DNA of 43,734 bases from Blastocatellia bacterium (GTDB lineage: Bacteria > Acidobacteriota > Blastocatellia > UBA7656). This document shows positions 9,369 to 35,967 of the stretch, piece by piece (positions within the stretch are counted from its first letter, which is position 1; every line of letters starts with the position of its first letter). The position numbers were made by a program, and so were the translations under genes. Under the pieces are notes generated by a model. It did not search any database. It was not told the origin of the DNA and saw nothing but the letters and a program-made list of their open reading frames with translations. The DNA lies in assembly GCA_023265195.1 (NCBI GenBank), contig JAHFUG010000008.1, forward strand, positions 1 to 43,734, given 5' to 3'.

Positions 9369-9370
9369 AA

Positions 9371-9562: not shown

Positions 9563-9592
9563 CCACTGTCCTCAGTACGGAGGGTTGAAGAA

Positions 9593-14221: not shown

Positions 14222-14384
14222 AACGCCGCGAGTCCTCACTGCGCCCGCGATCGGGTGACGAGACCGCGGCGTCTGAGGACGTTGTTCCAACAGGTCACCG
14301 ACGCTACGCTTTCAACGCCGTCCAACCAGACACTACGCGAGCGTCGCTGGGTTCATTCCATATTTTCAAGCATGCGGTCCGAGG

Positions 14385-16555: not shown

Positions 16556-16945
16556 TATCTCTGTGCCTCGCGCAGTGCTCCCTGTCCAATTGAGAAAATC
16601 AACCCGCTATGAGCAGGTGGCCATCAGCCGCCAGTGCCTGCGAACGCTTCGTTGCGACCGCCGGCCCACAGGAACCAGTTTCTCGCCTTCGTCATTTTGG
16701 AGGGGCAGTTTCAGTTCGGGGGAGGGTCAAACACGAAGCTTTGGAACGTTCCCGAACCTTCGGGGCGATTATAGACAGAAGAGACGACTGCTTCAACAGT
16801 AATCAGCGTTCACTGGCCAGCAGTCAATCAGTAGTCGGGGAACCAACGATCTCCTTACTCGCCTTGGTGAGTTTTGTGGTTTTGATTCTTTCGCGGCTTT
16901 CCGAAGCAGCGCTCCTGACTTTCCGCTTTAGGAGCGTAAAGAAAA

Positions 16946-17115
16946 AACTTCCCGATTTGAGAGCGTGCTGGGGAATGAATGTACGGGCGGCCTTCTGCGG
17001 CCGACCCTCCTGAGGCAGCGGTGCTTCCGTAAGGAGAACACGGGCCGCAAAGAGGGGCGGGCACGGAGACCAGCCCGTACTTTCATTCCCCAGCACACTC
17101 TCAAACCGGAAAGTT
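16946..17115. other. 170-nt extended imperfect hairpin (candidate structured RNA or MITE-like palindromic element)
   Basis: The 43-nt arms 16946-16988 and 17073-17115 are complementary at 39/43 positions. An inner stem pairs tgcggcc (about 16996-17002) with ggccgca (17043-17049). A 17-nt asymmetric bulge is present. The element lies in a 1.2-kb stretch with no convincing ORF. Confidence 0.6.
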
Positions 17116-17883
17116 AATTGTTCTACGGCTCCTTAGTAGCAGCACAGACCAGTTCCCAAATCCCAGCAACGCAGTTCAGTTGGTGGATCGTTCATACTCA
17201 ATCAACCTACCTGCCTACGGCGGCAACCGGTCATTCCCGATCAGATCAGTCCGCGGGCGTTGCAACGGGAGATACCTCGATAACCGACTCGCACCTTCCA
17301 TCGGACTGCGGACCACATATCTTACGGCGCGATATTGGAAAATAGGCTTGACCTTCGCCGTCAACTCATAGAGAATGCAGTCCGCTCACCCGAATCGGAG
17401 CGAGTCCTCTTTTTTGTGCGCCGAAATCCAGTTGGCTGAAAGGCGTAGCGAGTTAGTTCAACAGCGAAAGAACCCCTGAGGAATTCGCGATGACAACCTG
17501 AGCGTGGAGTGTGCGTCACAGCGGAGTCTTATGGCCTTCACCAATTCACGCGCCGCTTGCATCGGCTGGTTCGTTAACATTTCTCAGTGCGGCTGGAGCA
17601 CCGTTTGTCGAGACGAATGAGAATGATTGGAGTTTGGTTCGCCGGCCCTGAGCGATCGCTAGGCGGCCTTGGTCGGGCGGCGATGGAATTGAGCGCATTA
17701 GACCGACGAATTCGGGACCAATGACAAGGCAACGGATGCGCTCAGGGCGTTCGTCGAGGTTCCATCGAGTCGCGCTTCTTTGTGGGACTCGTTTATCACC
17801 AAGAGCCGGGCAAAAAAGAAGAGCGGGGGAATTTGCCACAAGCCGTCCTCTCACCCAAATCCGAACCAGTGCTGCGCTACCTT

Positions 17884-19359
17884 ATGCAGGTCGCCTCTCA
17901 GCCTTGGACTGGGCTGGCCGGTTTTCTTGACGCCCTCCTGGAAATCGCATTGCAGGAGACCGCTTCGGATACAGGCTGGGTCGTTGTAGATGCGCGGTCG
18001 GTTCAAGATGTTCCTGCCCTTTCGATCAAATCGATGGACGGAGGGCCGGTAGCCAGTGCATCGGATCTTCTGCGATACTGGCGGGCCGCGAAGAAGGCGG
18101 AAGCCGACAACGCGGCGCGTAACGACGGTCTCAAAAACGCGCCCCTCGGCGTTTCAACGGCGCCTCCACGCGCGATCGACGGCGGCTCATCTCTTTCCGC
18201 GCCGCTGCTGGAGGGAAAGAAGGTAGTCGGTCTGCTCCACGTCGAATCGCGGCGGCCGTCAAGATACCCTGAACAGAAACGAGACGAGATCGAGCGGCTG
18301 GCCGGCGCCGCGGTTCCCGCGTTGCATCGGGTGTTGCTGAAAGAGCAGATGCGGAAAGCGGGAGCGGACGTGGATCTTATCGGCGTCAGCCCCAAGTTTC
18401 TCGACCTTGAAAGACAGATCAGGCTCGTGGCCAGCTACGATTGGGGACCGGTGCTCATTACCGGAGAGCGTGGTAGCGGCAAGGAGCTGACGGCTTGGGC
18501 GTTGCATTGCTGGAGTTCTCGACACGGCTCCGCATTTGTGCCCGTGCTTCCGTCCGCCTTCGCCGAAGGGCTGGTTGCCGATGAGCTCTTCGGACATGAA
18601 CGACATGCCTTCACCGGAGCCGCTCAGGAGCGGCTCGGAAAATTCAAAGCCGCCGATGGAGGGACGATATTCTTTGACGAAGTAGCGGACATGCCCCATT
18701 CCGTCCAGTCGGGTCTGTTGCGCATCATCGAAAGAGGTGAGTTGCCTCGAATCGGCAGGGACGTCCAGACAAAGGTGAATGTCCGCATAGTGTCAGCCAC
18801 TAACTGCAATCTGCAGGAACTCATAGCTCAAGGCAAATTCCGGCAGGACCTCTATGACCGTTTGCGGGTCTTCGAGATTCACGTGCCCCCCTTGAGAGAA
18901 CGCCGCGACGATATTCCACTCCTGATCGACCACTTCATTCGCAAGCACTGCAAGACAATGCAACGCCATATCCGATCCGAAAACACCAGCCTTTGCTCCA
19001 CGTGCAGCGAGTTTACCTGTGTGAATTGCGTCGCCGCTCCCGTATATTCCGTCCTGTCCCAGCTTGACTGGCCGGGAAATGTGCGGGAACTCAAGAGCCT
19101 CGTCCTTCGATTGCTTGCCCACACGCCGGACGAGACTATCGAACCTCACCATCTTCCCGCAGAGATTCACGCGCAAAGGCAAAAACCGGGCGGCGCCAAC
19201 ACGGATTTGACACTCGACGGCGCGATTCGATCGCACATCGAGCGTGTGTTGGAGGCGGCCAACCACAATCAAAGCGAGGCCGCTCGACTACTAGGCACTC
19301 CGCTCTCCACGCTCAGAAGCAAGATGAAGAAGCTTGGACTCAAGGTGCGAGAGGCTTGA
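17884..19359 (+). CDS. sigma-54-dependent Fis-family transcriptional activator (GAF sensor, AAA+ domain, HTH_8)
   Basis: GERGSGKE (Walker A), ELFGHERHAFTGA (GAFTGA-loop variant), GGTIFFDEVADM (Walker B), WPGNVREL and C-terminal NQSEAARLLGTPLSTLRSKMKKLGL. The ORF track allows GTG 17782; ATG 17884 starts directly at the GAF-like region. The start is uncertain. Confidence 0.9.
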   Translation: MQVASQPWTGLAGFLDALLEIALQETASDTGWVVVDARSVQDVPALSIKSMDGGPVASASDLLRYWRAAKKAEADNAARNDGLKNAPLGVSTAPPRAIDGGSSLSAPLLEGKKVVGLLHVESRRPSRYPEQKRDEIERLAGAAVPALHRVLLKEQMRKAGADVDLIGVSPKFLDLERQIRLVASYDWGPVLITGERGSGKELTAWALHCWSSRHGSAFVPVLPSAFAEGLVADELFGHERHAFTGAAQERLGKFKAADGGTIFFDEVADMPHSVQSGLLRIIERGELPRIGRDVQTKVNVRIVSATNCNLQELIAQGKFRQDLYDRLRVFEIHVPPLRERRDDIPLLIDHFIRKHCKTMQRHIRSENTSLCSTCSEFTCVNCVAAPVYSVLSQLDWPGNVRELKSLVLRLLAHTPDETIEPHHLPAEIHAQRQKPGGANTDLTLDGAIRSHIERVLEAANHNQSEAARLLGTPLSTLRSKMKKLGLKVREA

Positions 19360-19588: not shown

Positions 19589-19605
19589 CCGGCGCGGGGA
19601 TTGCT
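19589..19605 (+). promoter_or_regulatory. candidate sigma-54 (-24/-12) promoter
   Basis: cCGGCGCGgggaTTGCT compared with the consensus YTGGCACGrNNNTTGCW. GG (19591-19592) and GC (19603-19604) have the canonical spacing, with two mismatches elsewhere. It lies 230 bp after the EBP stop and 65 nt before ABC-gene ATG 19670. Confidence 0.55.
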
Positions 19606-19669
19606 CTCCCTTCAAGCCGCACTCTCTTGAAGCAGGTTGGGAAAGGAAGCCGACCATCTGATCGGCTCC

Positions 19670-21520
19670 ATGGCTCTGAAGCCGGTCGAGGACACTTGCG
19701 TGGAAAAACAAGAGGTTTCTCTCCTGAACGTCTTCGGTCTGTTCGCTAGGTTCAGCGCGGACTTTCTCAGACCCCGCACTCAATCCTGCGTATGGGCGTC
19801 GGTTCTAATCTGTCTAAACACCGGGCTTCAACTGCCTCTGCCTCTGCTGGCCGCGCGATTCGTGGACAGCGTCGTTGGCGCGCGTGCCGGCGCTTCGGCC
19901 CTTTATTACGCGATCGCACTCATTTCAGTCACGGTGGTGGAATACGGTGTTTTGCTGGCCAACCAGCGGATTAATCTGGGATTGCGCGAGGAAGTTCTCT
20001 TAAACGTACAGGCCCGGCTGGCGCGGCATGTCTACAGGTTGCCGATCTCATACTTTCACGACAAGCAGTCATCGTACATTCAATCGCGGATCATGACGGA
20101 CGGCAGGTCGGTTGAGGGTTTCCTGCCGCAGCGCGTGCTCCCTCTCCTTCTCGACTTGCTTCTGTACGCCGCCGTGCTCGGCTGCATCTTCGCAATAAGT
20201 CCGATGATGGGTGGCATGGTTTTGGCCGGCACGGCGTCATTCGGATCCGTTTTCTATTTGACCAGTCACAGAGTCCGCCGTTTGAGAACGAAGCTTCAGG
20301 AAGCGGCGTCGCGTTCGTCGGCGATCGTCGCCGATGGCTTCGCGGGAATCCGCACGGTGAAGATGTACGGCTGCGAATCGCTCTTCAGCAGCAGGGTGGA
20401 GAGCCAACTCTCTCACCTTCGGGATACGCAGTTTCTAGCCAGCATGACCGAAGCCGGCTACACCGGGGCGGCGACTTTCGTTTCCGCCCTCACCGGAGCC
20501 TCGGTCATCACCTACGGAGCATACGCCATTATGCGGAACAGCATGACGGTTGGCCAGTTGTTCGGCGTCATAATGTTTCTGGGTCTGCTCTATCGTCCCA
20601 TCACTACGTTTGTCGCCGAGTACCTCCTGGTGCAGCAGGCGGCGGCGGGCGCGCAGAGGATATACGAACTCCTTGGCCTGCCGACCGAGACGGAAATCCG
20701 AGCGCGGAAGCTTGGCGGCGATGCTCGAAGCGGCGGTAACAGCATCGGATCGAGCCTTTCTTTCGAGGGCGTCAGTTTCAGCTACACCGGGGACTGTCCT
20801 GTCCTCGTGGATATCGACCTCAACATTCAACCCGGAGAGTGCTTCGCCCTCGTGGGCAAGAGCGGGGCCGGCAAGACAACGATGATCAATCTCGTACTCG
20901 GCCTGTACGAAGGCTATGAGGGCGGCATATTCCTTGACGGCGCCGAGATCGGAACGACGCCGTTGCCCGAGCTTAGGCGCCGCATCGGCGTCGTAGACCA
21001 GACGGCATTTCTCTTTACCGGAACTATTCTCGACAACATCCGCATCGCGGAGCCGGATGCGAGCTTTGAAGAAGTCGTAGCGGCGGCGAAGGCGGCGTTC
21101 GCGCACGACTTCGTAAACCGGCTGACCGACGGCTACAACACGCGGATTGGCGAGCGAGGCGCGGGATTGTCCGCGGGTCAGTGCCAGCGGATAGCGCTGG
21201 CGAGGCTCTTTTTGAAGAACCCTGGAATCGTCATCCTCGACGAAGCGATTTCGTCGGTTGATTCGGAATCGGAAGGCGTCATCCACGCCGCCCTTGCCTC
21301 GCTGATCAAGGGAAGGACGAGCATCATCGTCGCGCATCGGTTGTCGTCGCTGATGCTGGCGAATCGGGTCGCGGTGCTGCAAGCGGGGCGAATCGTCGAA
21401 CAGGGAACGCATGGCGAGCTGTTGCTCCATGGCAGCGCATACAAACGGCTCTTCCGGGAGCAATTCGCTCCGTTGCGCGAGCCGTCTGGAACCGACCGAG
21501 CGGCCCCTGTGTTTATGTAG
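19670..21520 (+). CDS. ABC exporter, fused permease/ATPase (MsbA-like half transporter) with no C39 peptidase domain
   Basis: N-terminal six-helix TMD. Walker A GKSGAGKTT, signature LSAGQCQR, Walker B IVILDEA and H-loop IIVAHR. The ORF-track TTG at 19637 is an alternative start. Confidence 0.9.
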   Translation: MALKPVEDTCVEKQEVSLLNVFGLFARFSADFLRPRTQSCVWASVLICLNTGLQLPLPLLAARFVDSVVGARAGASALYYAIALISVTVVEYGVLLANQRINLGLREEVLLNVQARLARHVYRLPISYFHDKQSSYIQSRIMTDGRSVEGFLPQRVLPLLLDLLLYAAVLGCIFAISPMMGGMVLAGTASFGSVFYLTSHRVRRLRTKLQEAASRSSAIVADGFAGIRTVKMYGCESLFSSRVESQLSHLRDTQFLASMTEAGYTGAATFVSALTGASVITYGAYAIMRNSMTVGQLFGVIMFLGLLYRPITTFVAEYLLVQQAAAGAQRIYELLGLPTETEIRARKLGGDARSGGNSIGSSLSFEGVSFSYTGDCPVLVDIDLNIQPGECFALVGKSGAGKTTMINLVLGLYEGYEGGIFLDGAEIGTTPLPELRRRIGVVDQTAFLFTGTILDNIRIAEPDASFEEVVAAAKAAFAHDFVNRLTDGYNTRIGERGAGLSAGQCQRIALARLFLKNPGIVILDEAISSVDSESEGVIHAALASLIKGRTSIIVAHRLSSLMLANRVAVLQAGRIVEQGTHGELLLHGSAYKRLFREQFAPLREPSGTDRAAPVFM

Positions 21521-21546: not shown

Positions 21547-23460
21547 ATGACTACAACAGTATCGAAAGAACGGCCGGACTCAACGATCCTCGACGGGACT
21601 TCGAATCGAGCGGGGCCGGTCAGAATCGCCCTGATCAACATGCCGTTTGCCGCCGCCAGGCGTCCGTCGATCCAGTGCGGACTGCTCAAGGCGATTTTGA
21701 ATCGAGCCGGGCATCAGACCGACGTCTTTTACTTCAACCTTCGGCTGGCCGCCGCTCTCGGCCACGAACTCTATTCCAAACTCGCCGACAATCAGTGGCT
21801 CAGCTTTTTGGGGGATTGGCTGTTCGGCGCGGCCGCGTTCGGCCCCCGCCAAGACGAGCTTCTCTATCTTCAGACCTCGGGCGCCGCCGGTCACCAGGCT
21901 CACGTTGGTTTGAACGAAGCCGAGTTGATCGAGCTCCGCAATCGGACCTTGCCGGCTCTGCTGGACGTGTGGATTGGCGAAACCGACTGGAGCGTCTACA
22001 CCGCCGCCGGCTTTTCGTGCACCTTCGATCAGAATGCCGCCTCGTTTGCGTTCGCCCGTCTGTTGAAGGAGCGCTTTCCCGGCCTTATCACCGTCTTTGG
22101 CGGGGCCAACTTCGATGACGACAGCGCCCCGGAGTACCTCCGCAAGCTCGATTGGATCGACTACATCGTGGTCGGCGAGGGGGATCAAGCCCTCCCCACC
22201 CTCGTCCAACGCCTTCAAGAAGGTCTATCCGGCGCTGGCGTCGCGGGTGTCGTCGCCCGCTCGAACGGACACGTCTGTTGTACGCCTGCCAAAATCGTTC
22301 CCGATTTGGATTCTCTCCCCGATCCCGACTATGACGACTACTTCGCGGCCTTGAACTCCCTCGGACAGCGCTCCGTGCTCGGCGCGGCGTCCCCTCAACT
22401 TCCCTTCCAGGGCGCTCGCGGATGTTGGTGGGGCCAAAAACACCACTGCACCTTTTGTGGCTTGAATGGGAGCGACATCGCGTTTCGCTCGAGAAACCCT
22501 CGCTTGGTCTACGACGAGCTACGGCGCCAATCGGCTCGCTACCGCACCCTTAAGTTCATCGCTACCGACAACATCCTCGACATGAAGTACATCGACACCC
22601 TCTTTACGTGGATGCGCGACAGCCGGCATGACTACAACCTCTTTTATGAAACAAAGGCCAACCTCACCCGCGCCCAGATCCGCACGCTGGTCCAGGGAGG
22701 CGCCAAAGCGATTCAAGCCGGCGTCGAAAGCCTGAACACCCATGTCCTGCGCCTGATGAACAAAGGGACGACTATGTTGCTCAACTTACGTCTCCTCAAG
22801 TGGGCTCGCTACTACGGCCTCCACGTCGCCTGGAACCTCCTCACCGGCTTCCCGGGTGAAACCCTTGACGACTATCAAGCGCAGGCGAGGCTGATACCGC
22901 TGATCGCTCACCTCGAGCCCCCCGGGATCGCCGACAGCATCATGCTCGAGAAGCATGGGCCTTACGTGATTAGCCGCGATCCTTTCTACCGGAACCTTCG
23001 TCCGGCAAGCGGATACTCGTTCATCTTTCAAGAGAGTATCGATCTCGACAAGATCGCGAAGTACTTTGACGCTGAACGGATGGCGGGCGACTGGCGCCCC
23101 GCCGCCTTCGAAGAGCTGAACAGGGGGGTCGATCGGTGGAACGATTTGTGGCGCGGCGACAAGCGGCCAGCCCTGGTCTGCCAACGATCCGCGGATTGGA
23201 TGCGCATCGAGGATCGCCGCGATCCGGGCGAGCCCAGGACACACTGGCTCACGGCCCCATTCGCGTCGGCTTATGGCGCGTGTTTGGAAACAGCCCAAAA
23301 CGCGGCCGGTGTCGTGCAACGTAGCCGGGAATCCGGCGAAGGCTATAGCTCGGAAAGTGATGCGCGCGGAATGCTCGGCGAAATGACTGAAAAGGGTTTG
23401 ATGGTTGAAGAGAACGGCAATTACCTGAGCCTCGCTATCCCGGTCAATCCGGGCTGGTGA
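21547..23460 (+). CDS. B12-binding-domain radical SAM protein, RiPP-maturase-like (copy A)
   Basis: N-terminal Rossmann-like IALINMPFAA..PSIQCGLLKAILNRAGHQTDVFYFNL. Cluster motif GCWWGQKHHCTFCGLNG (C-x7-C-x2-C, 22423-22458). AGGAG RBS before ATG 21547. I recall this pattern from the TIGR03975-type bacteriocin/RiPP maturation radical SAM family; this was not verified. Confidence 0.88.
   Translation: MTTTVSKERPDSTILDGTSNRAGPVRIALINMPFAAARRPSIQCGLLKAILNRAGHQTDVFYFNLRLAAALGHELYSKLADNQWLSFLGDWLFGAAAFGPRQDELLYLQTSGAAGHQAHVGLNEAELIELRNRTLPALLDVWIGETDWSVYTAAGFSCTFDQNAASFAFARLLKERFPGLITVFGGANFDDDSAPEYLRKLDWIDYIVVGEGDQALPTLVQRLQEGLSGAGVAGVVARSNGHVCCTPAKIVPDLDSLPDPDYDDYFAALNSLGQRSVLGAASPQLPFQGARGCWWGQKHHCTFCGLNGSDIAFRSRNPRLVYDELRRQSARYRTLKFIATDNILDMKYIDTLFTWMRDSRHDYNLFYETKANLTRAQIRTLVQGGAKAIQAGVESLNTHVLRLMNKGTTMLLNLRLLKWARYYGLHVAWNLLTGFPGETLDDYQAQARLIPLIAHLEPPGIADSIMLEKHGPYVISRDPFYRNLRPASGYSFIFQESIDLDKIAKYFDAERMAGDWRPAAFEELNRGVDRWNDLWRGDKRPALVCQRSADWMRIEDRRDPGEPRTHWLTAPFASAYGACLETAQNAAGVVQRSRESGEGYSSESDARGMLGEMTEKGLMVEENGNYLSLAIPVNPGW
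21664..22884 (+). repeat. 1,221-bp direct repeat, copy 1 (nucleotide-identical to 24924-26144)
   Basis: Line-by-line comparison at an offset of 3,260 bp found no mismatch. Identity decays abruptly at both ends. Antisense ORFs in the ORF track are also duplicated exactly. Confidence 0.95.
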
Positions 23461-23505
23461 GTATCAGGGCAAGCTGTTCCAACTCCGTCCTGGGAGGTGC
23501 GCCGT

Positions 23506-24780
23506 ATGTCCTCGAGTCTGCGTGATCTGATCCAAATCTCCACGCGAGAAGCTCCCGCCGCTTCTACCGTAGATATGCCGGAATTCGCCGCTGACGAAAA
23601 AGCGGCTCTTGAAGAACTGCTGGCGGCGCCGTATCCGGAGCCGGGCTTGCCGCCAAGCGTGGCGTTTATCATCCGGACTACGCGCCTGTGCAATCTGCGT
23701 TGTTCCTACTGCTATGTGTGTCCGGACGAATCGGCTCAGACGATGTCGTTTCCCCTGGTGGTGAGGACCATCCGGGATGCGTTGAGGGACCGGCGTCTTC
23801 GCGATGTCACTTTTTACTGGTTTGGCGGCGAGCCCACATTGCTGCCGGTGACGTTTTACGAGAAGGCGCTGTGGCTTCAACGAGCACTGCGCCGGAACGG
23901 TCAGGTAATTCACAACGACCTCATCACCAATGGCACTCGAGTTACGGACGAATGGATCAGACTGTGGCGTGACCACGGTTTCCGGTTACGCGTCAGCCTG
24001 GATGGTCCGCCGGAATCCCACGATGCACACCGGAAATTCGCTGGTGGGAAGCCTACCTCCGAGCTGGTCGTTCGCGGCATTCGGGCTCTAGTCGCCGCGG
24101 GGCTGGGGCCCAGCGTCGACCTTGTCGTGACCCCCGCGGTTCGGCGGATTGGCGCGGCGCGGCTGCTGGAGTACGTGCTGGAACTGGGAGTTAAGGAATT
24201 GCGCGTAAGGTATATGTTGGCTTCGCCCGAGGACGGCCTCACACCGGACGGAGAACGGCCACTTCCGTTCTCCGAATATGTCGGCTATCTTCGCGACTTA
24301 TTCCGAATTTGGTGGCCAAGAGCAGCCGGCAAGCTGGCCATACAGGAACTAACCGATCTCGTGGAGACCCTCCGCTCCGGACCCACCGGTCTGTGCGTTC
24401 ATTCCGGCCAGTGCTTTGGAAGCGTGTACACGATTGAACCGGACGGCGGCGTTTTTACGTGCGATGACTTCTTCGGTTACGACTCGCACCGGTTCGGAAA
24501 CCTCTTTCAAATGACGCTTTCTGATTGCGTTCGCGGCTCCCATCTCCGTCAACTACGTCAGAGGCAACAAATCGAGAGCGCAGACTACGAAGAATGCCGT
24601 TGGTTTTCAGTTTGCCATGGCGGCTGTCCCCGTTGGCGGCTGTCACCGGCGGTCTCCGGCGCGTCGGACGGTCACTGCTGCGGTATGAAGCGCTTGATTT
24701 CAGATATCGCGTCCGCGCTCGGATTAGCCGGACCGGCCCGAAGACCGGTCCGGCAATGCAAGACACAGGAGACGACATGA
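23506..24780 (+). CDS. radical SAM / SPASM-domain peptide-modifying enzyme (anSME-like), copy 1
   Basis: CNLRCSYC (C-x3-C-x2-C, 23689-23712). C-terminal Cys-rich SPASM-like region CVHSGQC...FTCDD...ECRWFSVCHGGCP. GGGAGG lies 8 nt before ATG 23506. The stop overlaps the next gene's start (ATGA). Confidence 0.88.
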   Translation: MSSSLRDLIQISTREAPAASTVDMPEFAADEKAALEELLAAPYPEPGLPPSVAFIIRTTRLCNLRCSYCYVCPDESAQTMSFPLVVRTIRDALRDRRLRDVTFYWFGGEPTLLPVTFYEKALWLQRALRRNGQVIHNDLITNGTRVTDEWIRLWRDHGFRLRVSLDGPPESHDAHRKFAGGKPTSELVVRGIRALVAAGLGPSVDLVVTPAVRRIGAARLLEYVLELGVKELRVRYMLASPEDGLTPDGERPLPFSEYVGYLRDLFRIWWPRAAGKLAIQELTDLVETLRSGPTGLCVHSGQCFGSVYTIEPDGGVFTCDDFFGYDSHRFGNLFQMTLSDCVRGSHLRQLRQRQQIESADYEECRWFSVCHGGCPRWRLSPAVSGASDGHCCGMKRLISDIASALGLAGPARRPVRQCKTQETT

Positions 24781-26720
24781 CATCCATCGGACACCAACTG
24801 GTCGGGCTAGAAGGGCGGCTCACCGCTCCACCTGATCCTTGCGCCGTCACAGCTTCATTCGACGCAAAGGTCAGCCAGGCCCGATTGGCCTTGATAAACA
24901 TGCCGTTTGCCGCCACGACGCGCCCGTCGATCCAGTGCGGACTGCTCAAGGCGATTTTGAATCGAGCCGGGCATCAGACCGACGTCTTTTACTTCAACCT
25001 TCGGCTGGCCGCCGCTCTCGGCCACGAACTCTATTCCAAACTCGCCGACAATCAGTGGCTCAGCTTTTTGGGGGATTGGCTGTTCGGCGCGGCCGCGTTC
25101 GGCCCCCGCCAAGACGAGCTTCTCTATCTTCAGACCTCGGGCGCCGCCGGTCACCAGGCTCACGTTGGTTTGAACGAAGCCGAGTTGATCGAGCTCCGCA
25201 ATCGGACCTTGCCGGCTCTGCTGGACGTGTGGATTGGCGAAACCGACTGGAGCGTCTACACCGCCGCCGGCTTTTCGTGCACCTTCGATCAGAATGCCGC
25301 CTCGTTTGCGTTCGCCCGTCTGTTGAAGGAGCGCTTTCCCGGCCTTATCACCGTCTTTGGCGGGGCCAACTTCGATGACGACAGCGCCCCGGAGTACCTC
25401 CGCAAGCTCGATTGGATCGACTACATCGTGGTCGGCGAGGGGGATCAAGCCCTCCCCACCCTCGTCCAACGCCTTCAAGAAGGTCTATCCGGCGCTGGCG
25501 TCGCGGGTGTCGTCGCCCGCTCGAACGGACACGTCTGTTGTACGCCTGCCAAAATCGTTCCCGATTTGGATTCTCTCCCCGATCCCGACTATGACGACTA
25601 CTTCGCGGCCTTGAACTCCCTCGGACAGCGCTCCGTGCTCGGCGCGGCGTCCCCTCAACTTCCCTTCCAGGGCGCTCGCGGATGTTGGTGGGGCCAAAAA
25701 CACCACTGCACCTTTTGTGGCTTGAATGGGAGCGACATCGCGTTTCGCTCGAGAAACCCTCGCTTGGTCTACGACGAGCTACGGCGCCAATCGGCTCGCT
25801 ACCGCACCCTTAAGTTCATCGCTACCGACAACATCCTCGACATGAAGTACATCGACACCCTCTTTACGTGGATGCGCGACAGCCGGCATGACTACAACCT
25901 CTTTTATGAAACAAAGGCCAACCTCACCCGCGCCCAGATCCGCACGCTGGTCCAGGGAGGCGCCAAAGCGATTCAAGCCGGCGTCGAAAGCCTGAACACC
26001 CATGTCCTGCGCCTGATGAACAAAGGGACGACTATGTTGCTCAACTTACGTCTCCTCAAGTGGGCTCGCTACTACGGCCTCCACGTCGCCTGGAACCTCC
26101 TCACCGGCTTCCCGGGTGAAACCCTTGACGACTATCAAGCGCAGACCGCTCTAGTGCCGGCCATCACGCATCTCGTGCCGCCCAACAGCGTGGACGGAAT
26201 TCTCTTACAGAAACACAGCCCGTACGCGGAGGCTTCGAGTTATTGTGGCGGCGAGTTGCGCCCCGCCGCCGGATACGAGTTCGTTTATCCTCCACGCCTG
26301 GAGCTTGAAGAGATCGCATTTTACTACGATGGGGGCTCGCCGCTTACGGCCGAGAGCGACATCGCCCTCTATGATCTGAAGCAAGCCGTTGAAAAGTGGC
26401 GGAGCCTGTGGAAGGAGGGGACGCGCCCGGTTCTGGTCCATCAGCGGGCCGCGGACTGGATTCGGTTCGAGGACCGGCGTGATCCGGAACGTCCCAAGAC
26501 CACTTGGCTGTCTGCGCCTTATGCGCTGGCGTATGAATGCTGTTCCGACACCGCGCAGTCACCCGCGGCAACAGCCAGCCGGATGCGCGAAACCTCGGGC
26601 AGGCCGACTGGGGAAGATGAAGTCGCTCGGATGCTTCTCGAGATGAAGGATTCGGGCCTGATGGCGGAAGAGAATGGGCACTTTCTGAGCCTCGCTCTTC
26701 CAGCCAATGCAGGTTGGTAG
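24777..26720 (+). CDS. B12-binding-domain radical SAM protein, RiPP-maturase-like (copy B)
   Basis: The core is identical to copy A. The N-terminus (MTSIGHQLVGLEGR...) and the last ~190 aa are distinct. ATG 24777 overlaps the TGA of the SPASM gene. The ORF-track start at 24525 would overlap that gene by 250 nt. Confidence 0.88.
   Translation: MTSIGHQLVGLEGRLTAPPDPCAVTASFDAKVSQARLALINMPFAATTRPSIQCGLLKAILNRAGHQTDVFYFNLRLAAALGHELYSKLADNQWLSFLGDWLFGAAAFGPRQDELLYLQTSGAAGHQAHVGLNEAELIELRNRTLPALLDVWIGETDWSVYTAAGFSCTFDQNAASFAFARLLKERFPGLITVFGGANFDDDSAPEYLRKLDWIDYIVVGEGDQALPTLVQRLQEGLSGAGVAGVVARSNGHVCCTPAKIVPDLDSLPDPDYDDYFAALNSLGQRSVLGAASPQLPFQGARGCWWGQKHHCTFCGLNGSDIAFRSRNPRLVYDELRRQSARYRTLKFIATDNILDMKYIDTLFTWMRDSRHDYNLFYETKANLTRAQIRTLVQGGAKAIQAGVESLNTHVLRLMNKGTTMLLNLRLLKWARYYGLHVAWNLLTGFPGETLDDYQAQTALVPAITHLVPPNSVDGILLQKHSPYAEASSYCGGELRPAAGYEFVYPPRLELEEIAFYYDGGSPLTAESDIALYDLKQAVEKWRSLWKEGTRPVLVHQRAADWIRFEDRRDPERPKTTWLSAPYALAYECCSDTAQSPAATASRMRETSGRPTGEDEVARMLLEMKDSGLMAEENGHFLSLALPANAGW
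24924..26144 (+). repeat. 1,221-bp direct repeat, copy 2 (nucleotide-identical to 21664-22884)
   Basis: See copy 1. Confidence 0.95.
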
Positions 26721-26954: not shown

Positions 26955-27104
26955 ATGAATACCGAATACGCAGAAGACCAATTGGAAGATTGCACTTTCG
27001 GTAGCCACCCCAGCGTTCAGCTTGGGGCGGACGCCGGACTCAACGACAGCGCTGATGACCTCGACAGCGTCGAGTGGACCTCCGGCGTCAAGTGGTCGAA
27101 GTAA
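26955..27104 (+). CDS. candidate 49-aa precursor peptide, absent from the ORF track because it is under 60 aa
   Basis: AAGGAG (26941-26946) with an 8-nt spacer before the ATG. An in-frame stop lies upstream at 26928-26930. Translation: MNTEYAEDQLEDCTFGSHPSVQLGADAGLNDSADDLDSVEWTSGVKWSK. Bracketed by hairpins at 26721-26742 and 27113-27153. Confidence 0.45.
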   Translation: MNTEYAEDQLEDCTFGSHPSVQLGADAGLNDSADDLDSVEWTSGVKWSK

Positions 27105-27255: not shown

Positions 27256-29724
27256 ATGACTGATTCCTTGAAGGAGTGGCTCTCCGGATTCCGGCAACTC
27301 AGCCGCAATCCGGGCTTTTCAGCGAGTGTCGTTTTCACCCTTGCACTCGCAATGGGCGTCACTTCCGCGATGATGAGTGTTGGAGACGCGCTGTTGTTGA
27401 AACCTCTTCCCTATCACAAGCCCGGCGAGTTGTTCGACGTCTCGGAGACCTCGGCGCGGTCAAGCGGCGTGACTTCGCTGCCGAACGCACTCGATTGGAA
27501 AGAGCAAAGCCGGACGCTGAAGCCGGTTGCATACTACATGGAAACGGCGCTTCCCCTCGATTTGGGATCAGGGACAACGATTGTGCCCGTGGTCAAGGGA
27601 AGCTATGAGATGTTTGAAACTCTGGGCGTCACGCCGGCCGTGGGCCGCGTCTTTGATCCGCGGGACGAGCGTGAACCCGAAAAGAACGTGGCTGTTCTCA
27701 GCGCCGCGTTTTGGAGGGAAACGTATGGAGAAGATCGCTCCGTCATCGGAAAGACCATAAGGTTGAACCATTCCTCATACACGATCATCGGAATAACGCC
27801 GGCGGAGTTCGCTTTTCCGATCGGCTATCCCACTGCTATTTGGACGCCGTTGGCGCCCGAGCGGGATTTAAAGGAAAACCGCGGCGCAAGGAATCTGTCG
27901 GTGATCGGACGCAGTCATCCCGGAGAAACCCTGAAATCCGTCGAAGCGGAATTCGCAGTGCTTTCGCGGCGATTGAGCGAGCAGTATCCCGACGCGCAAC
28001 AGGGGTGGACGACTCGAGTGAGGAGCTATGACGACTTGGCCAGAGGCCACCTGCGGCCAATGGTGTTGGCGCTGGTAGGAGCCCTGGGGGTGGTCTTCTT
28101 GATTGCATGCGCGAACGTGACGGGTTTGCTCCTGGCGCGTGTCTCGGCGCGCCGCCGCGAATTCACGATCAAGGCCGCCCTTGGCGCGTCAATGTTGCGG
28201 ATCGTGCGGCAAATCCTGATTGAATGCGTCCTGCTATCGCTGATCGGAGCCGGGTTTGGCGCTCTGTTCACCTTGATCATCCTTACGATCTTCCAGCCGC
28301 ATCTCGGAATTCACGTTCGAGAGGCGGGCGAAGTGGCGATGAACTGGCGCGTCGGGCTGTTCGTTCTCGTTCAGGCAATAGCCTGCGGCTCTCTCACCGC
28401 AATCCTCCCCGCCCTGGCTCTGGCCCGCGAGACGTCTCAGTCAGGGTTGCGCGAGGAGGCGTTGACGGTGCTGTCCAGCCGGCGTCAGAACCGGCTGATG
28501 AAAGTCCTGGCCTCCAGCCAAGTGGCGCTGACGTTTGTTCTGCTGGTGGCCGCGGGCCTGATGCTTCGCACCTTGGACCGGCTCCAGCACACGAATACCG
28601 GGTTTGAGCCGGACAACGTGCTGACGGCCGAGCTCTGGCCTTCGCTGGAGCCGGCGGCCGGGGACGCACTCTCGGAAACTTCCGGCCGCGGGGATCTCGT
28701 GCGTGACGCTTACCTTCCGCTGGTCGATCATCTTGGGTCGTTGCCCGAGGTGCAAGCCGCCGGCTTGATCTCCGTGCTGCCGCTCTCGGGATTTTCAGGA
28801 ACCCGGTTCTTTGTCGCGGGCCGGCCTAAACCGAGTTCCGCCGAGACTCCGCGCTGCGAGATCCGCGCGGTCAGCGAGGGATATTTTCGCGCCCTCGGAA
28901 TTCAACTTCTCGCGGGCCGCTTGCCCGGCGCGCAGGACGGCGGCCGAACCTCACCGGTGGCTGTGATCAACGACGTACTGGCTCGGAAGTACTTTCCCGA
29001 CGACGATGCGCTCGGAAAACAGGTCAAACTCCGTTTCGAAGGCCCAAACAAGGAGTCCATCACTATCGTCGGCGTCTTTCGCGCAACCGTCCAGCGCAGT
29101 CTCTCCGACCCGCCGGAGCCGGAGTTGGACTTGCCCTATTCACAACTCACGCCTGACCACCTCCTCTACCCTTATCTCGGCGCGGTGAAAACCAACGTAG
29201 TGCTTCGAACCGCCGTGCCGCCCGAGAGAGTGGCGCCTTCGCTGCGCCGCGCCGTTTACAAAGAGGCGCCGGACCTGGCAATCGACAATGTTCGCTCCTT
29301 GGCCGATCATATGAGGCGTACGCTTACGGGCCGCCAGTTCTCGTTGTTCCTAATCGCCACTTTCGCCCTGCTCGCATTAGCGATGGCTTTGGCGGGGCTT
29401 CACGCGGTGATAGCCCTCTGGGTGAGCCAGCGGACTCGCGAGTTGGGACTGCGCATGGCGCTTGGAGCGCCGCGGTCAAACGTCGTCGGTCTCGTCGTGC
29501 GACAGACCGGCTTTGTCGTCATCGCCGGGTTGATAGCCGGCTGGGGGCTTTTCGCGCCGCTGAGTCATTTGGTAGGGGATTTCCTTCAGGGAGTCGCCGT
29601 CACCGACACACTCACGATCGCGGCCGTCTCCTTGAGCATTTTATTGATAGGGCTGCTGGCGGGCTTCCGTCCGGCGTGGCGCGCAGCCTCCATTTTGCCA
29701 AATGACGTACTGCGCTCCGAATGA
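27256..29724 (+). CDS. ADOP-family duplicated FtsX/MacB-type ABC permease
   Basis: The N-terminus LSRNPGFSASVVFTLALAMGVTSAMMSVGDALLLKPLPYHKPGELF is typical of the acidobacterial duplicated orphan permease family. Two FtsX-like 4-TM modules. GGAGG lies before ATG 27256. A perfect TATAAT sits at 27215-27220. Confidence 0.88.
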   Translation: MTDSLKEWLSGFRQLSRNPGFSASVVFTLALAMGVTSAMMSVGDALLLKPLPYHKPGELFDVSETSARSSGVTSLPNALDWKEQSRTLKPVAYYMETALPLDLGSGTTIVPVVKGSYEMFETLGVTPAVGRVFDPRDEREPEKNVAVLSAAFWRETYGEDRSVIGKTIRLNHSSYTIIGITPAEFAFPIGYPTAIWTPLAPERDLKENRGARNLSVIGRSHPGETLKSVEAEFAVLSRRLSEQYPDAQQGWTTRVRSYDDLARGHLRPMVLALVGALGVVFLIACANVTGLLLARVSARRREFTIKAALGASMLRIVRQILIECVLLSLIGAGFGALFTLIILTIFQPHLGIHVREAGEVAMNWRVGLFVLVQAIACGSLTAILPALALARETSQSGLREEALTVLSSRRQNRLMKVLASSQVALTFVLLVAAGLMLRTLDRLQHTNTGFEPDNVLTAELWPSLEPAAGDALSETSGRGDLVRDAYLPLVDHLGSLPEVQAAGLISVLPLSGFSGTRFFVAGRPKPSSAETPRCEIRAVSEGYFRALGIQLLAGRLPGAQDGGRTSPVAVINDVLARKYFPDDDALGKQVKLRFEGPNKESITIVGVFRATVQRSLSDPPEPELDLPYSQLTPDHLLYPYLGAVKTNVVLRTAVPPERVAPSLRRAVYKEAPDLAIDNVRSLADHMRRTLTGRQFSLFLIATFALLALAMALAGLHAVIALWVSQRTRELGLRMALGAPRSNVVGLVVRQTGFVVIAGLIAGWGLFAPLSHLVGDFLQGVAVTDTLTIAAVSLSILLIGLLAGFRPAWRAASILPNDVLRSE

Positions 29725-35942: not shown

Positions 35943-35967
35943 ATTCGCTGTTTTATTCCCCGTGTTT

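What the first reader, a model, noticed from the sequence alone, without database searches (positions are those of the whole stretch)
21664..26144. Twin B12-rSAM genes share a 1,221-bp nucleotide-identical core but have divergent N- and C-termini
21664-22884 and 24924-26144 are identical base for base at an offset of 3,260 bp. Identity collapses within a few nucleotides at both edges. The first ~40-50 aa are unrelated between the copies, and the last ~190 aa match at roughly half of positions. Compare ARLIPLIAHLEPPGIADSIMLEKHGPY... with TALVPAITHLVPPNSVDGILLQKHSPY.... Sharp boundaries of this kind suggest recent gene conversion or segmental recombination homogenising the B12/rSAM catalytic core. 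The C-terminal domains, possibly the substrate- or partner-recognition parts, stay distinct. That would be a modular way to give one chemistry two specificities. A 1.2-kb perfect repeat only 2 kb apart is also a classic place for assembly artefacts.
Basis: seen in the sequence. Interest (0 to 1): 0.68.

Follow-up and report, generated by a model that had tools for sequence, protein, structure and literature searches.

The report
Twin methyltransferase genes sharing one core
Two neighbouring peptide-modifying enzyme genes in a soil-type acidobacterial antibiotic-like gene cluster carry a base-for-base identical 1.2-kb catalytic middle between old, very different ends, and related metagenomes show that this shared middle has been kept uniform by recombination for a long time and routinely trips up genome assemblers.

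Summary
Window 21664-22884 and 24924-26144 are 1221/1221 identical, in frame, inside two TIGR03975 B12/radical-SAM 'RiPP C-methyltransferase' genes: g1 (21547-23460) and g2 (24777-26720). The flanks are anciently diverged, with synonymous differences near saturation (pS 0.67-0.71) and 40-45% amino-acid identity.

Related contigs support long-term concerted evolution rather than a one-off event or pure artefact.
- Three short-read contigs of the same strain, and contigs from two related lineages (core dS 0.5-1.2 from the window), end exactly k or k-1 bases inside the same core boundaries.
- In each lineage the unique 2-kb segment between the genes is bounded by core on both sides.

So every lineage has its own (near-)identical pair of cores, with the same codon-precise limits (codons ~40 and 446).

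Public 'single-gene' versions and their proteins are partly assembler paths that skip or circularise this loop.

The exact 100% identity in the window cannot be verified without reads.

The divergent 190-aa C-terminal domains are both under purifying selection. They plausibly set site or substrate specificity on a conserved 49-aa precursor, but this is untested.

This is a new instance of a known process (gene conversion or unequal exchange) and is moderately interesting.

The parts
17782..19359 (+). Sigma-54-dependent transcriptional activator (GAF, AAA+ and Fis-type HTH domains). Likely regulator of the cluster.
   Evidence: Pfam Sigma54_activat 2.3e-53, GAF_2, HTH_8. Same position in L001.
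19590..19605 (+). Candidate sigma-54 promoter (GG-N10-GC): CGGCGCGGGGATTGCT, about 30 nt upstream of the ABC gene.
   Evidence: Relaxed scan. Similar elements lie at the same place in L001 (TGGAGCGGAGATTGCT) and L002 (TGGAGCGGAGATTGCC). A strict consensus search was at chance level, so this is a candidate only.
19637..21520 (+). ABC exporter (fused permease and ATPase, HlyB/MsbA-like).
   Evidence: Pfam ABC_membrane and ABC_tran; NCBIfam below all equivalog cut-offs.
21547..23460 (+). g1: B12-binding radical-SAM RiPP C-methyltransferase (TIGR03975), 637 aa. Built from N-tail type I, the shared core and C-terminal domain type A.
   Evidence: TIGR03975 577 bits against a cut-off of 282. AF2 model pLDDT 89.6. 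Foldseek top hits are OxsB, TokK, TsrM and CysS.
21664..22884 (+). Core copy 1 (g1 codons 40-446): the B12-binding Rossmann domain plus the radical-SAM barrel, including the Cys293-x7-Cys301-x2-Cys304 motif.
   Evidence: Identical to 24924-26144. The boundary at residue 446 lies inside helix 440-453 of the model. Invariant Cys residues.
22885..23460 (+). C-terminal domain type A of g1 (191 aa plus stop).
   Evidence: 71% identical to P0003, and 40-45% to type B. dN/dS 0.13-0.24 against L003 and L006.
23506..24780 (+). Radical-SAM/SPASM peptide maturase, DarW/DarE-like. It lies in the unique segment between the two cores. The ORF can also be read from GTG 23497.
   Evidence: Pfam Radical_SAM and SPASM. 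NF041300 DarW 295 bits, below the 650 cut-off. Orthologues P0122 and P0123 are 73% identical.
24777..26720 (+). g2: second TIGR03975 methyltransferase, 647 aa. Built from N-tail type II, the shared core and C-terminal domain type B.
   Evidence: TIGR03975 575 bits. ATG with AGGAG and ATGA overlap.
24924..26144 (+). Core copy 2 (g2 codons 50-456).
   Evidence: Same-strain contigs L091 and L092 begin 141 and 30 nt before 26144.
26145..26720 (+). C-terminal domain type B of g2.
   Evidence: 72-75% identical to P0004 and P0005. dN/dS 0.14-0.22.
26955..27104 (+). Candidate 49-aa RiPP precursor: MNTEYAEDQLEDCTFGSHPSVQLGADAGLNDSADDLDSVEWTSGVKWSK. A ribosome-binding site (AAAGGAG) precedes it.
   Evidence: Conserved at the same place in L001 and L002, 71-73% identical. 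No Pfam family. The precursor role is inferred from position and size.
27256..29724 (+). ADOP-family duplicated MacB/FtsX-type permease.
   Evidence: TIGR03434 722 bits against a cut-off of 622.
29731..31332 (+). Second radical-SAM/SPASM maturase (PapB/QhpD-like). Gene callers on the same-strain contig start it at 29818.
31365..32798 (+). TldD-type metalloprotease. Candidate leader peptidase, paired with PmbA.
   Evidence: Pfam PmbA_TldD domains 1-3. NF008006 494 bits, just under the 513 cut-off.
32795..34198 (+). PmbA-type metalloprotease. The start is taken from same-strain and orthologous gene calls and has a 4-nt overlap with TldD.

Best explanation
g1 and g2 are two tandem paralogues of a B12-dependent radical-SAM peptide C-methyltransferase. 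They lie in one operon of a RiPP cluster with this gene order: sigma-54 activator, ABC exporter, g1, DarW-like rSAM/SPASM maturase, g2, 49-aa precursor, ADOP permease, second rSAM/SPASM, TldD/PmbA.

Their N-terminal tails and their 190-aa C-terminal domains diverged long ago. The 1.22-kb stretch encoding the cobalamin domain and the radical-SAM barrel is kept (near-)identical within each genome. The process is recurrent RecA-type homologous recombination between the two direct copies, by gene conversion and/or rounds of unequal exchange. Exchange stops where homology ends. The limits of identity therefore sit at the same codons (about 40 and 446) in every lineage.

Shown:
- the repeat itself;
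- the ancient flanks;
- the lineage-specific cores;
- the shared boundaries;
- purifying selection on all parts.

Inferred:
- that the loop is integrated as in the window;
- that the two enzymes methylate different positions or substrates, because their C-terminal domains differ;
- that recombination rather than selection explains the identity at synonymous sites.

Side effects of the 1.2-kb direct repeat:
- easy loop-out deletion, giving a single hybrid gene;
- possible amplification;
- systematic mis-assembly in short-read data.
For: 1. Exact 1221-nt identity with saturated synonymous divergence immediately outside. The pair is more than 10 SD from the family-wide relation between core and C-terminal identity.

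2. Same strain, other read sets. L091 (MEGAHIT k141, 99.88% identical to the window) starts exactly 141 nt inside the 3' end of the core. L092 (Logan, 99.96%) starts exactly 30 nt inside. The assembly graph therefore branches exactly at 22884/26144.

3. Lineage alpha (JGI 3300081965). L006 reads C(A) end, rSAM/SPASM, N(II) start. Both of its ends are 126-nt perfect overlaps with the core of L001 from the same sample. Identity starts at codon 39/40 and ends at codon 446.

4. Lineage beta. L007 and L008 (two Logan samples) are the same loop piece and begin 30 nt inside the 3' core boundary. L008 also ends 30 nt past the last base that distinguishes the copies at the 5' boundary, whereas L007 runs about 45 nt into the core there. 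L003 reads rSAM/SPASM 3' end, N(II), core, C(A), rSAM/SPASM 5' part. L003 and L002 are 93.5% identical in the core and unalignable in the flanks.

5. Cores differ between lineages (dS window-L001 1.10, L001-L002 0.48), yet they are collapsed within each lineage. Loop genes co-diverge with the cluster (rSAM/SPASM dS 0.96 and 0.41). dN/dS is 0.07-0.24 throughout.

6. The boundary motifs RPSIQCG and DYQAQ are the same in all five proteins.

7. Ordinary tandem paralogues exist in this family without homogenisation. In L004 the core is 55% and the C-terminus 35% identical. Identity is therefore not a family constraint.

8. The shared segment carries the cofactor-binding and catalytic parts of a class-B rSAM fold.
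Against: - No reads were available. The window's contig may have been threaded through a collapsed repeat by its assembler, which would make the two copies identical by construction. True copies could differ at a few sites.
- Graph topology alone cannot separate 'loop integrated between two cores' from 'single hybrid gene plus a 3.26-kb circle'.
- All complete relatives in public data show the other combinations, N(I)+C(B) three times and N(II)+C(A) once. None shows the window's combinations.
- L002 (Logan) runs unbranched through N(I)-core-C(B). At least one population may therefore truly lack the loop.
- The mosaic boundary falls inside a helix, not in a linker.
- The C-terminal domain has no significant structural or Pfam match, so its role in specificity is unproven.
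- No methyltransferase activity or product is known for this cluster.
Confidence: 0.72

Rival explanations
1. Consensus artefact on a real repeat. The genome has two cores that are very similar but not identical (say 95-99.5%). Bubble-popping, loop traversal or polishing wrote the same consensus twice. The arrangement and the concerted evolution would still be real, but the 'perfect' identity would not.
For: Short-read assemblies of this strain and its relatives collapse the core and break at it. The window has no indel differences from the Illumina-type contigs L091 and L092, so it may itself be a short-read assembly. L007 ends 45 rather than 30 nt inside the 5' boundary, which hints at a copy-specific or strain-level SNP near the edge.
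Against: The k=31 Logan contigs break exactly k-1 from the boundary, not earlier. The outermost 30 nt at least are therefore identical between copies. Nothing in the available data shows a difference inside the core. This rival cannot be excluded without reads.
Confidence: 0.2
2. Mis-threaded assembly. The chromosome carries one hybrid gene, N(I)-core-C(B), as in L001 and L002. The 3.26-kb unit (N(II)-core-C(A) plus rSAM/SPASM) is a separate circular molecule or belongs to a co-occurring strain. The window's two-gene order would then be an assembler's loop traversal.
For: Every complete relative in public data has the N(I)+C(B) or N(II)+C(A) combination. L003 is a circular permutation of the loop. 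L002 passes through the core unbranched. The graph topology is the same under both models.
Against: - The putative circle would have only 36 nt of non-coding DNA and one ATGA gene overlap. It would have no replication or maintenance gene and no room for a promoter.
- Its genes have co-diverged with the chromosomal cluster over dS of about 0.4-1.0 under purifying selection, in at least five samples.
- In the window's order the genes form a tight, well-formed operon.
- Distant clusters (L009, L010) keep the MT-rSAM/SPASM adjacency on the chromosome.
- L002's cluster looks decayed, with two in-frame stops in its second rSAM gene. That fits a secondary loop-out deletion.
Confidence: 0.08
3. A single recent event confined to this strain. 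One conversion tract, or a recent partial duplication, copied the core once, with no long-term concerted evolution.
For: Zero differences in 1221 nt show that the last homogenising event in this strain was very recent.
Against: Two other lineages, separated from the window by core dS of 1.1-1.6 and from each other by 0.48, show the same collapsed core with the same boundaries. Each has its own lineage-specific core sequence. Under a single ancestral event without further exchange, the copies within each genome would now differ at least as much as the orthologues do.
Confidence: 0.04
4. Extreme purifying selection on the nucleotide sequence of the core (for example an embedded RNA or a regulatory element) keeps the copies identical without recombination.
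For: The core has a mildly unusual composition: mean GC skew -0.12 against +0.06 in the flanks, and GC3 0.75.
Against: Orthologous cores differ at 58-66% of synonymous sites (pS). The nucleotide sequence is therefore free to change between lineages. Rfam finds nothing in the window.
Confidence: 0.01

Closest known systems
Concerted evolution of bacterial paralogues by RecA-dependent gene conversion. The textbook case is tufA/tufB of Salmonella and E. coli; also rRNA operons (from my own knowledge, not checked here).
   Same: Two copies in one genome stay nearly identical while orthologues diverge. Homologous recombination between the copies is the accepted mechanism.
   Different: - Here only an internal 1.22-kb block is homogenised, and both ends of the same genes are anciently divergent.
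- The copies are direct repeats only 2 kb apart, so loop-out deletion and amplification are possible.
- The genes are tailoring enzymes of a secondary-metabolite cluster, not dosage-sensitive housekeeping genes.
Gene conversion between modules of assembly-line polyketide synthases, including GRINS elements (Nivina et al. 2021, PMC8256042).
   Same: Homogenised stretches of more than 500 bp inside biosynthetic genes. Paralogous segments cluster together rather than with their orthologues. It has been proposed as a route to diversification of natural-product pathways.
   Different: - The core fails the GRINS composition criterion. Mean |GC skew| is 0.122, below 0.15; |TA skew| is 0.155 (definition read).
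- The genes are stand-alone RiPP radical-SAM enzymes, not multimodular PKS.
- The tract covers the whole catalytic part, with fixed limits across lineages.
'Islands of divergence' in duplicated genes under gene conversion (theory and examples reviewed in PMC3924837; copepod GOT1 paralogues, PMC3728101; abstracts seen).
   Same: Most of a duplicate pair is homogenised. Regions under selection for different function escape conversion and diverge.
   Different: The divergent parts here are whole terminal segments, not small islands. They are as divergent as unrelated family members (40-45% aa). An origin by acquisition of a foreign C-terminal module cannot be excluded.
Chimeric genes made by deletion between paralogues in E. 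coli evolution experiments (PMC13626634).
   Same: Recombination between two direct paralogous copies deletes the intervening DNA and leaves one hybrid gene. That is the structure of the N(I)-core-C(B) genes in L001 and L002.
   Different: For L001 the hybrid is at least partly an assembler path, because the loop contig L006 is in the same sample. Only L002 may be a real deletion. No experiment was done here.
RiPP pathways with several B12-dependent radical-SAM C-methyltransferase paralogues of different site specificity, such as polytheonamide PoyB/PoyC and bottromycin BotRMT1-3 (from my own knowledge, not checked here).
   Same: Several class-B rSAM methyltransferases in one cluster act on one precursor.
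   Different: As far as I know, those paralogues are divergent along their whole length. No shared nucleotide-identical catalytic core has been described for them.

Membership tests
TIGR03975 RiPP maturation radical-SAM C-methyltransferase (class B, cobalamin-dependent rSAM) | Full-length match to the family HMM above the curated cut-off. | tested here: met
   g1 scores 577.3 bits and g2 574.9 bits against a cut-off of 281.85. Profile positions 1-606 of 606 are matched.
TIGR03975 RiPP maturation radical-SAM C-methyltransferase (class B, cobalamin-dependent rSAM) | N-terminal cobalamin-binding Rossmann domain followed by a radical-SAM partial TIM barrel. | tested here: met
   Pfam Radical_SAM 49.9 bits (cut-off 29.5). 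B12-binding scores only 20.1 bits, below its 32.1 cut-off. The AF2 model (pLDDT 89.6) matches OxsB, TokK, TsrM, CysS and MgmA at E 1e-15 to 1e-11.
TIGR03975 RiPP maturation radical-SAM C-methyltransferase (class B, cobalamin-dependent rSAM) | Three-cysteine motif for the radical-SAM [4Fe-4S] cluster. | tested here: met
   C293, C301 and C304 are invariant in 69 family members. The sequence is GCWWGQKHHCTFCG. The spacing is CX7CX2C, not the canonical CX3CX2C.
TIGR03975 RiPP maturation radical-SAM C-methyltransferase (class B, cobalamin-dependent rSAM) | C-methylation of a ribosomal peptide. | not testable with these tools
   There is only genomic context: a conserved 49-aa precursor candidate, rSAM/SPASM maturases, TldD/PmbA and exporters.
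Concerted evolution of paralogues by gene conversion or unequal exchange | Paralogues within a genome are more alike than orthologues between genomes over the tract. | tested here: met
   Window cores are 100% identical, against 76-78% nt identity to orthologous cores. In lineages alpha and beta the two cores are collapsed by the assemblers, while the lineages differ by dS 0.48.
Concerted evolution of paralogues by gene conversion or unequal exchange | Flanking parts of the same genes show old divergence and group by gene type across genomes. | tested here: met
   pS 0.67-0.71 between g1 and g2 flanks. C(A) groups g1, P0003 and L006; C(B) groups g2, P0004 and P0005.
Concerted evolution of paralogues by gene conversion or unequal exchange | Both copies are shown on one physical molecule (spanning reads or PCR). 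| not testable with these tools
   No read data. The window contig spans both copies, but its assembly method is unknown.
[quoted passage not shown] | A repeat longer than 500 bp at more than 80% identity, with mean absolute GC skew and TA skew both above 0.15. | tested here: not met
   Length and identity are met. Mean |GC skew| is 0.122 and |TA skew| is 0.155, in 150-nt windows with step 30 (criterion read).
Darobactin-type maturases DarE/DarW (for the gene between the two cores) | Score above the NCBIfam equivalog or exception cut-off. | tested here: not met
   DarW scores 295 bits against 650, and DarE 228 against 650. The gene is related but is not a member. The precursor ends in WTSGVKWSK, which contains W and K residues, but no crosslink is known.
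Assembly artefact (collapsed or duplicated repeat) | Read depth and spanning reads are inconsistent with two copies. | not testable with these tools
   Only indirect evidence. Independent assemblies branch exactly at the repeat limits. That proves two different continuations on each side of a shared core, but not the order of the joins or the exact identity.

The most novel reading that the evidence does not exclude
The identical core is not just a passive product of conversion. It would be a maintained recombination hinge that makes the 2-kb segment (C-terminal domain A, DarW-like maturase, N-tail II) an excisable and amplifiable cassette.

By loop-out, re-duplication and exchange, a population would hold cells with one hybrid methyltransferase, cells with two enzymes plus the extra maturase, or cells with three or more copies. 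All four N x C chimeras would exist. The result would be heritable heterogeneity in the peptide product.

Hints only: all four combinations are seen in public contigs; L002 is an unbranched single-gene path in a k=31 assembly; L003 is a middle-copy-like gene.
Probability: 0.12. Interest if true: 0.75.

Novelty: new member of a known kind. Interest (0 to 1): 0.55.

Why it matters
There are three reasons.

1. It is a clean natural example of domain-level concerted evolution in a bacterial biosynthetic cluster. The cofactor-binding and catalytic block of two tailoring enzymes is tied together by recombination over a long time (orthologue dS up to about 1). The C-terminal 190 residues evolve as two separate lineages. 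This marks a natural 'cut site' (after ...DYQAQ, residue 446) at which C-terminal modules have been combined with one catalytic core. Engineers of B12-rSAM methyltransferases could test that cut site directly.

2. It is a practical warning. Several public proteins and 'single-methyltransferase' versions of this cluster (P0003, P0005 with L001, and possibly P0004 and P0152) are likely in-silico chimeras or loop-skipping paths. The maturase between the cores ends up on orphan 2.1-2.3-kb contigs. BGC mining from short-read metagenomes will therefore miscount and mis-describe such clusters.

3. The cluster itself is uncharacterised and may be worth expressing. It combines a 49-aa precursor ending in WTSGVKWSK, two rSAM/SPASM maturases, two C-methyltransferases and TldD/PmbA, in a probable acidobacterium.

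Tried and rejected
- **Exact look-up of g1 and g2 in the public gene index.** Neither is on record.
- **Genome-contig scan with the rSAM/SPASM protein.** No relative found.
- **Metagenome-contig scan with the same protein.** One irrelevant weak hit, L005.
- **Genome-contig scan with TldD.** This was run to name the organism and look for resolved clusters. It returned 80 Acidobacteriota loci; the best were Bryobacterales, Bryobacteraceae and Solibacteraceae at 62-68%. None contains the methyltransferase, the maturase or the precursor. It therefore gives only a rough taxonomic hint.
- **Rfam and tRNA scans of the window.** Nothing found.
- **Strict sigma-54 consensus search.** At chance level. 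Only a relaxed, position-conserved candidate was found.
- **GRINS hypothesis.** The composition criterion is not met.
- **GC-biased conversion.** Core GC3 is 0.754 against 0.65-0.74 elsewhere. This is too small a difference to argue from.
- **C-terminal domain as a recognised RiPP recognition element (RRE).** There is no Pfam hit, even at E<10. There is no significant Foldseek hit, only weak local matches of about 55 residues to winged-helix domains at E of about 1. The beta3-alpha3 order of elements in the model is suggestive only.
- **Literature searches.** Searches for DarW and TIGR03975 gave nothing on function.
- **Different 3' conversion endpoint in the beta lineage.** I first read the longer BLAST alignment of L003 against L002 (to codon 463) as evidence for this. 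The protein alignment shows the same DYQAQ boundary, so the extra stretch was only BLAST extension.
- **Single-gene loci L001 and L002 as the ancestral state.** I first took this as evidence that the window carries an insertion. The 126-nt perfect end overlaps of L006 with L001 in the same sample showed that L001 is a loop-skipping path.

Full report
**1. The observation**

Window 21664-22884 and 24924-26144 are identical at all 1221 positions, at an offset of 3260 nt. The exact match cannot be extended by one base on either side.
- The 30 nt upstream are 25/30 identical.
- The next 30 nt further upstream are 14/30 identical, and beyond that identity is random (5-9/30).
- Downstream it falls at once to about 50%.

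No other long repeat exists in the window apart from a 58-nt tandem unit near 36.0 kb.

The repeat lies in phase inside two + strand genes.
- g1 is 21547-23460 (637 aa).
- g2 most likely starts at ATG 24777 (647 aa), not at the upstream TTG 24525 of the mechanical ORF. This ATG follows an AGGAG and overlaps the stop of the preceding gene as ATGA.
- The repeat covers codons 40-446 of g1 and codons 50-456 of g2.

Amino-acid identity between g1 and g2 is 39.5% (N tail), 100% (core) and 44.5% (C-terminal 191 residues). The proportion of synonymous differences is 0.67 in the N flank and 0.71 in the C flank, close to saturation, and 0 in the core.

I calibrated this against 2016 pairs of other family members. 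Core and C-terminal identities correlate at r=0.94. Pairs with a C-terminal identity near 0.445 have a core identity of 0.62 +/- 0.034 and never above 0.69.

**2. What the genes are**

Both genes match NCBIfam TIGR03975, 'RiPP maturation radical SAM C-methyltransferase', over the full profile. They score 577 and 575 bits against a cut-off of 282. Pfam sees the radical-SAM domain and a sub-threshold B12-binding domain.

An AlphaFold model of g1 built on 69 homologues has a mean pLDDT of 89.6. Its best PDB matches are the cobalamin-dependent radical-SAM enzymes OxsB, TokK, TsrM, CysS and MgmA.

The shared segment holds the cobalamin domain and the radical-SAM barrel. It includes the invariant Cys293-x7-Cys301-x2-Cys304 motif. 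The 3' limit of identity, after DYQAQ at residue 446, lies inside helix 440-453, the last helix of the barrel.

The divergent C-terminal 191 residues fold confidently on their own (pLDDT 88). They have no Pfam match and no significant structural neighbour. There are only weak local resemblances of the last ~60 residues to winged-helix domains.

**3. The surroundings**

The surroundings form a RiPP-type cluster.

| Window coordinates | Gene |
|---|---|
| 17782-19359 | sigma-54 activator |
| 19637-21520 | ABC exporter |
| 21547-23460 | g1 |
| 23506-24780 | radical-SAM/SPASM maturase related to DarW/DarE, well below their cut-offs |
| 24777-26720 | g2 |
| 27256-29724 | ADOP-family permease |
| 29731-31332 | second radical-SAM/SPASM enzyme |
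| 31365-34198 | TldD and PmbA |

Between g2 and the permease lies a 49-codon ORF with a good ribosome-binding site (26955-27104). It encodes MNTEYAEDQLEDCTFGSHPSVQLGADAGLNDSADDLDSVEWTSGVKWSK. It is conserved at the same place in related contigs at 71-73% identity. I take it as the precursor peptide, by inference from position and size.

TldD best hits point to Acidobacteriota, order Bryobacterales or near it. Identity is only 62-68%.

**4. Related sequences: the decisive evidence**

The closest full-length relatives of g1 are P0003, P0004 and P0005. Cut at the window's boundaries, they give an unexpected pattern.
- P0004 and P0005 have the N tail of g1 but the C-terminal domain of g2 (72-75% identical).
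- P0003 has the N tail of g2 but the C-terminal domain of g1 (71%).
- P0003 and P0004 come from different samples. They are 96.6% identical in the core and 42% in the C-terminus.
- The window core is equally distant (82.6-82.8%) from all three.

C-terminal domains therefore fall into two old types, A and B. Cores group by lineage. The motifs at both boundaries are the same in all five proteins.

Context explains the swapped combinations. The loci of P0005 (L001) and P0004 (L002) show the same cluster with only one methyltransferase and no DarW-like maturase. The maturase's closest homologues sit on orphan contigs of 2.1-2.3 kb.

*Lineage alpha.* One orphan contig, L006, comes from the same JGI sample as L001.
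- It reads [end of a type-A C-terminal domain] - maturase - [start of an N(II) tail].
- Each of its ends runs into the core.
- The terminal 126 nt at each end are perfect matches to L001's core. All mismatches lie outside, in the flank-specific sequence.
- Symmetric perfect overlaps of 126 nt are what neighbouring edges of a de Bruijn graph built with k=127 look like. That k value is my knowledge of common metaSPAdes settings.

L001 is therefore a path that enters the collapsed core from N(I) and leaves to C(B), skipping the loop. In that genome perfect identity runs from codon 39/40 to codon 446, the same limits as in the window.

*Lineage beta.*
- Two Logan contigs from two other samples, L007 and L008, are the same loop piece. 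Both begin 30 nt inside the 3' core boundary. L008 also ends 30 nt past the last base that distinguishes the two copies at the 5' boundary (k=31, from my knowledge), whereas L007 runs about 45 nt into the core there.
- L003 reads maturase 3' end (with the same ATGA overlap) - N(II) - core - C(A) - maturase 5' part. It is a circular permutation of the loop.
- L003 and L002 are 93.5% identical over the core and unalignable outside it.

*The window's own strain.* The exact precursor sequence occurs on three more contigs.
- L091 is a MEGAHIT contig named k141_..., 99.88% identical to the window. It begins exactly 141 nt before position 26144.
- L092 is a Logan contig, 99.96% identical. It begins exactly 30 nt before position 26144.
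- Both initial stretches match both core copies perfectly.

Independent read sets from the same organism therefore branch exactly at the window's 3' repeat limit.

**5. What follows from this**

(a) The shared core and its sharp limits are real features of the DNA in at least three lineages. They are not a peculiarity of one assembly.

(b) The lineages are well separated.

| Segment compared | Pair | dS |
|---|---|---|
| Core | window - L001 | 1.10 |
| Core | window - L002 | 1.24 |
| Core | L001 - L002 | 0.48 |
| Maturase | window - L006 | 0.96 |
| Maturase | L006 - L007 | 0.41 |

Yet in each lineage the two cores are similar enough for assemblers to collapse them. Had the cores been homogenised only once, before these lineages split, the two copies in each genome would now differ at least as much as the orthologues do. 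Homogenisation has therefore recurred. This is concerted evolution.

(c) All parts are under purifying selection. dN/dS is 0.07-0.13 for the core, 0.13-0.24 for C(A), 0.14-0.22 for C(B) and 0.17-0.19 for the maturase. Both C-terminal types are therefore functional.

(d) Homogenisation is not a property of the family. The tandem pair in L004 is an ordinary divergent pair, 55% identical in the core and 35% in the C-terminus.

(e) Distant clusters (L009, L010) keep a methyltransferase immediately followed by a DarW-like maturase, and then a precursor ending in GPVKIW(A/T)FRW. The g1-maturase adjacency is therefore old.

**6. Is the two-gene order of the window correct?**

In every sample the unique 2-kb segment is bounded by core on both sides and has no other exit. 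It must therefore be one of two things: integrated between two cores one or more times, as in the window, or a separate 3.26-kb circle. Graph topology and depth cannot tell these apart.

I favour integration (about 0.9) on biological grounds.
- The circle would consist of two genes with a 4-nt overlap and a 36-nt spacer. It would have no replication function and no room for a promoter.
- The loop genes have co-diverged with the chromosomal cluster under purifying selection across several samples.
- The window order forms a tight operon behind a candidate sigma-54 promoter that is conserved in position.

The unbranched single-gene path in the k=31 contig L002 may be a real loop-out deletion. 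That cluster also has two in-frame stops in its second rSAM/SPASM gene.

It follows that P0003 and P0005, and possibly P0004 and P0152, are probably chimeric reading frames created by assembler paths.

**7. Is the identity exactly 100%?**

I cannot tell. If the window was assembled from short reads with a loop resolver, the same graph edge was written twice and identity is by construction. Bubble removal could hide a low level of difference. The window shows no indels against the Illumina-type contigs, so this remains possible. I give about 0.2 to 'very similar but not identical'. That would not change the main conclusion.

**8. Mechanism**

The best explanation is RecA-type homologous recombination between two direct 1.22-kb repeats. 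This could be non-reciprocal conversion, cycles of unequal sister exchange (triplication followed by deletion), or both.

Heteroduplex extension and branch migration cannot proceed into the flanks, whose synonymous sites are saturated. Tracts therefore pile up at the edges of homology, and the limits stay at the same codons in all lineages.

The origin of the mosaic is not resolved. One route is an old tandem pair whose ends diverged while the middle stayed tied. The other is replacement of a terminal module from a distant homologue. C(A) and C(B) are hardly closer to each other (42-45%) than to other family members (up to 42%).

Functionally, the two enzymes share the identical cofactor and radical machinery and differ in the C-terminal domain. 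In solved class-B enzymes the C-terminal domain closes over the active site (my knowledge of TokK and TsrM). I infer from this that the C-terminal domain sets which residue of the 49-aa precursor, or which intermediate, is methylated. This step is inference only.

**9. Comparison with what is known**

The process is the known one of concerted evolution by gene conversion. The tuf genes are the bacterial textbook case, from my own knowledge.
- In natural-product genes the closest parallel is conversion between PKS modules, including GRINS (PMC8256042). The core does not meet the GRINS skew criterion.
- The pattern of homogenised sequence with persistent divergent regions matches the 'islands of divergence' literature (PMC3924837, PMC3728101; abstracts).
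- Hybrid genes formed by deletion between paralogues have been seen in E. coli experiments (PMC13626634).

I found no report of this in RiPP radical-SAM methyltransferases, but the literature search was shallow. I therefore rate it as a new member of a known kind, of moderate interest. It also carries a practical lesson for metagenomic BGC mining and marks a natural module boundary for enzyme engineering.

Noticed in passing
window 35967-36077 (between the start of the 34575-35981 minus-strand ORF and the end of selA at 36114-37751): A 53-nt unit is repeated in tandem with a 58-nt period, two copies at 98% identity. The same-strain contig L091 (99.9% identical) has only one copy, so the copy number is polymorphic or was mis-assembled. 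There is no Rfam match.
   Followed up: partly
window 16939-17009 and 17052-17122: A 71-nt inverted repeat (79% complementary, 42-nt spacer) lies in the 1.2-kb non-coding stretch upstream of the sigma-54 activator gene.
   Followed up: no
window 19590-19605; L001 8084-8099; L002 504-519: A GG-N10-GC element with a TTGC -12 box lies about 30-65 nt upstream of the ABC exporter gene and is conserved in position in three lineages. It is a candidate sigma-54 promoter for the operon next to the sigma-54 activator.
   Followed up: partly
window 26955-27104; L001 12348-12497; L002 about 4760-4906; L009 11373-11675; L010 11435-11737: A conserved 49-aa candidate precursor ends in SVEWTSGVKWSK. Distant clusters with the same methyltransferase-maturase pair have 100-aa precursors ending in GPVKIW(A/T)FRW. 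The shared V-K-(x)-W motif suggests a Lys/Trp-directed modification.
   Followed up: partly
g1 residues 293-304 (window 22423-22458) and the whole TIGR03975 alignment A1: The radical-SAM cluster motif in this family is CX7CX2C (GCWWGQKHHCTFCG, invariant in 69 sequences), not the canonical CX3CX2C.
   Followed up: partly
Public proteins P0003 (L003), P0005 (L001), P0004 (L002), P0152: These database proteins combine the N tail of one window gene with the C-terminal domain of the other. At least P0005/L001 is an assembler path that skips the loop, because the loop contig L006 is in the same sample. The 'single methyltransferase' form of this cluster in public data is therefore unreliable.
   Followed up: yes
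L003 2822-2824; L002 7568-9145: Possible decay in the beta lineage. The maturase in L003 has a TCA-to-TAA nonsense codon where L006, L007 and L008 have Ser. The second rSAM/SPASM gene of L002 has two in-frame stops. These could also be sequencing errors.
   Followed up: partly
L004 5978-9702: A more distant tandem pair of TIGR03975 genes lies next to integrase fragments. The pair shows ordinary divergence (65% nt, 55% aa in the core). It served as a control showing that homogenisation is not general in the family.
   Followed up: yes
window 21664-22884 compared with its flanks: The core has a consistently negative GC skew (mean -0.12, about the 95th percentile of 1.2-kb tiles in the window) and the highest GC3 of the cluster (0.754). 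Both C-terminal segments have a positive skew. It is below the GRINS threshold and its cause is unknown.
   Followed up: partly
window 1054-10951: Upstream of the cluster is a run of secreted-type peptidase genes: M14 carboxypeptidase, M28/PA/TFR-dimer, prolyl oligopeptidase S9 and M24. A Ser/Thr kinase with a YARHG domain lies at 12488-14290 (-). No link to the cluster is evident.
   Followed up: no
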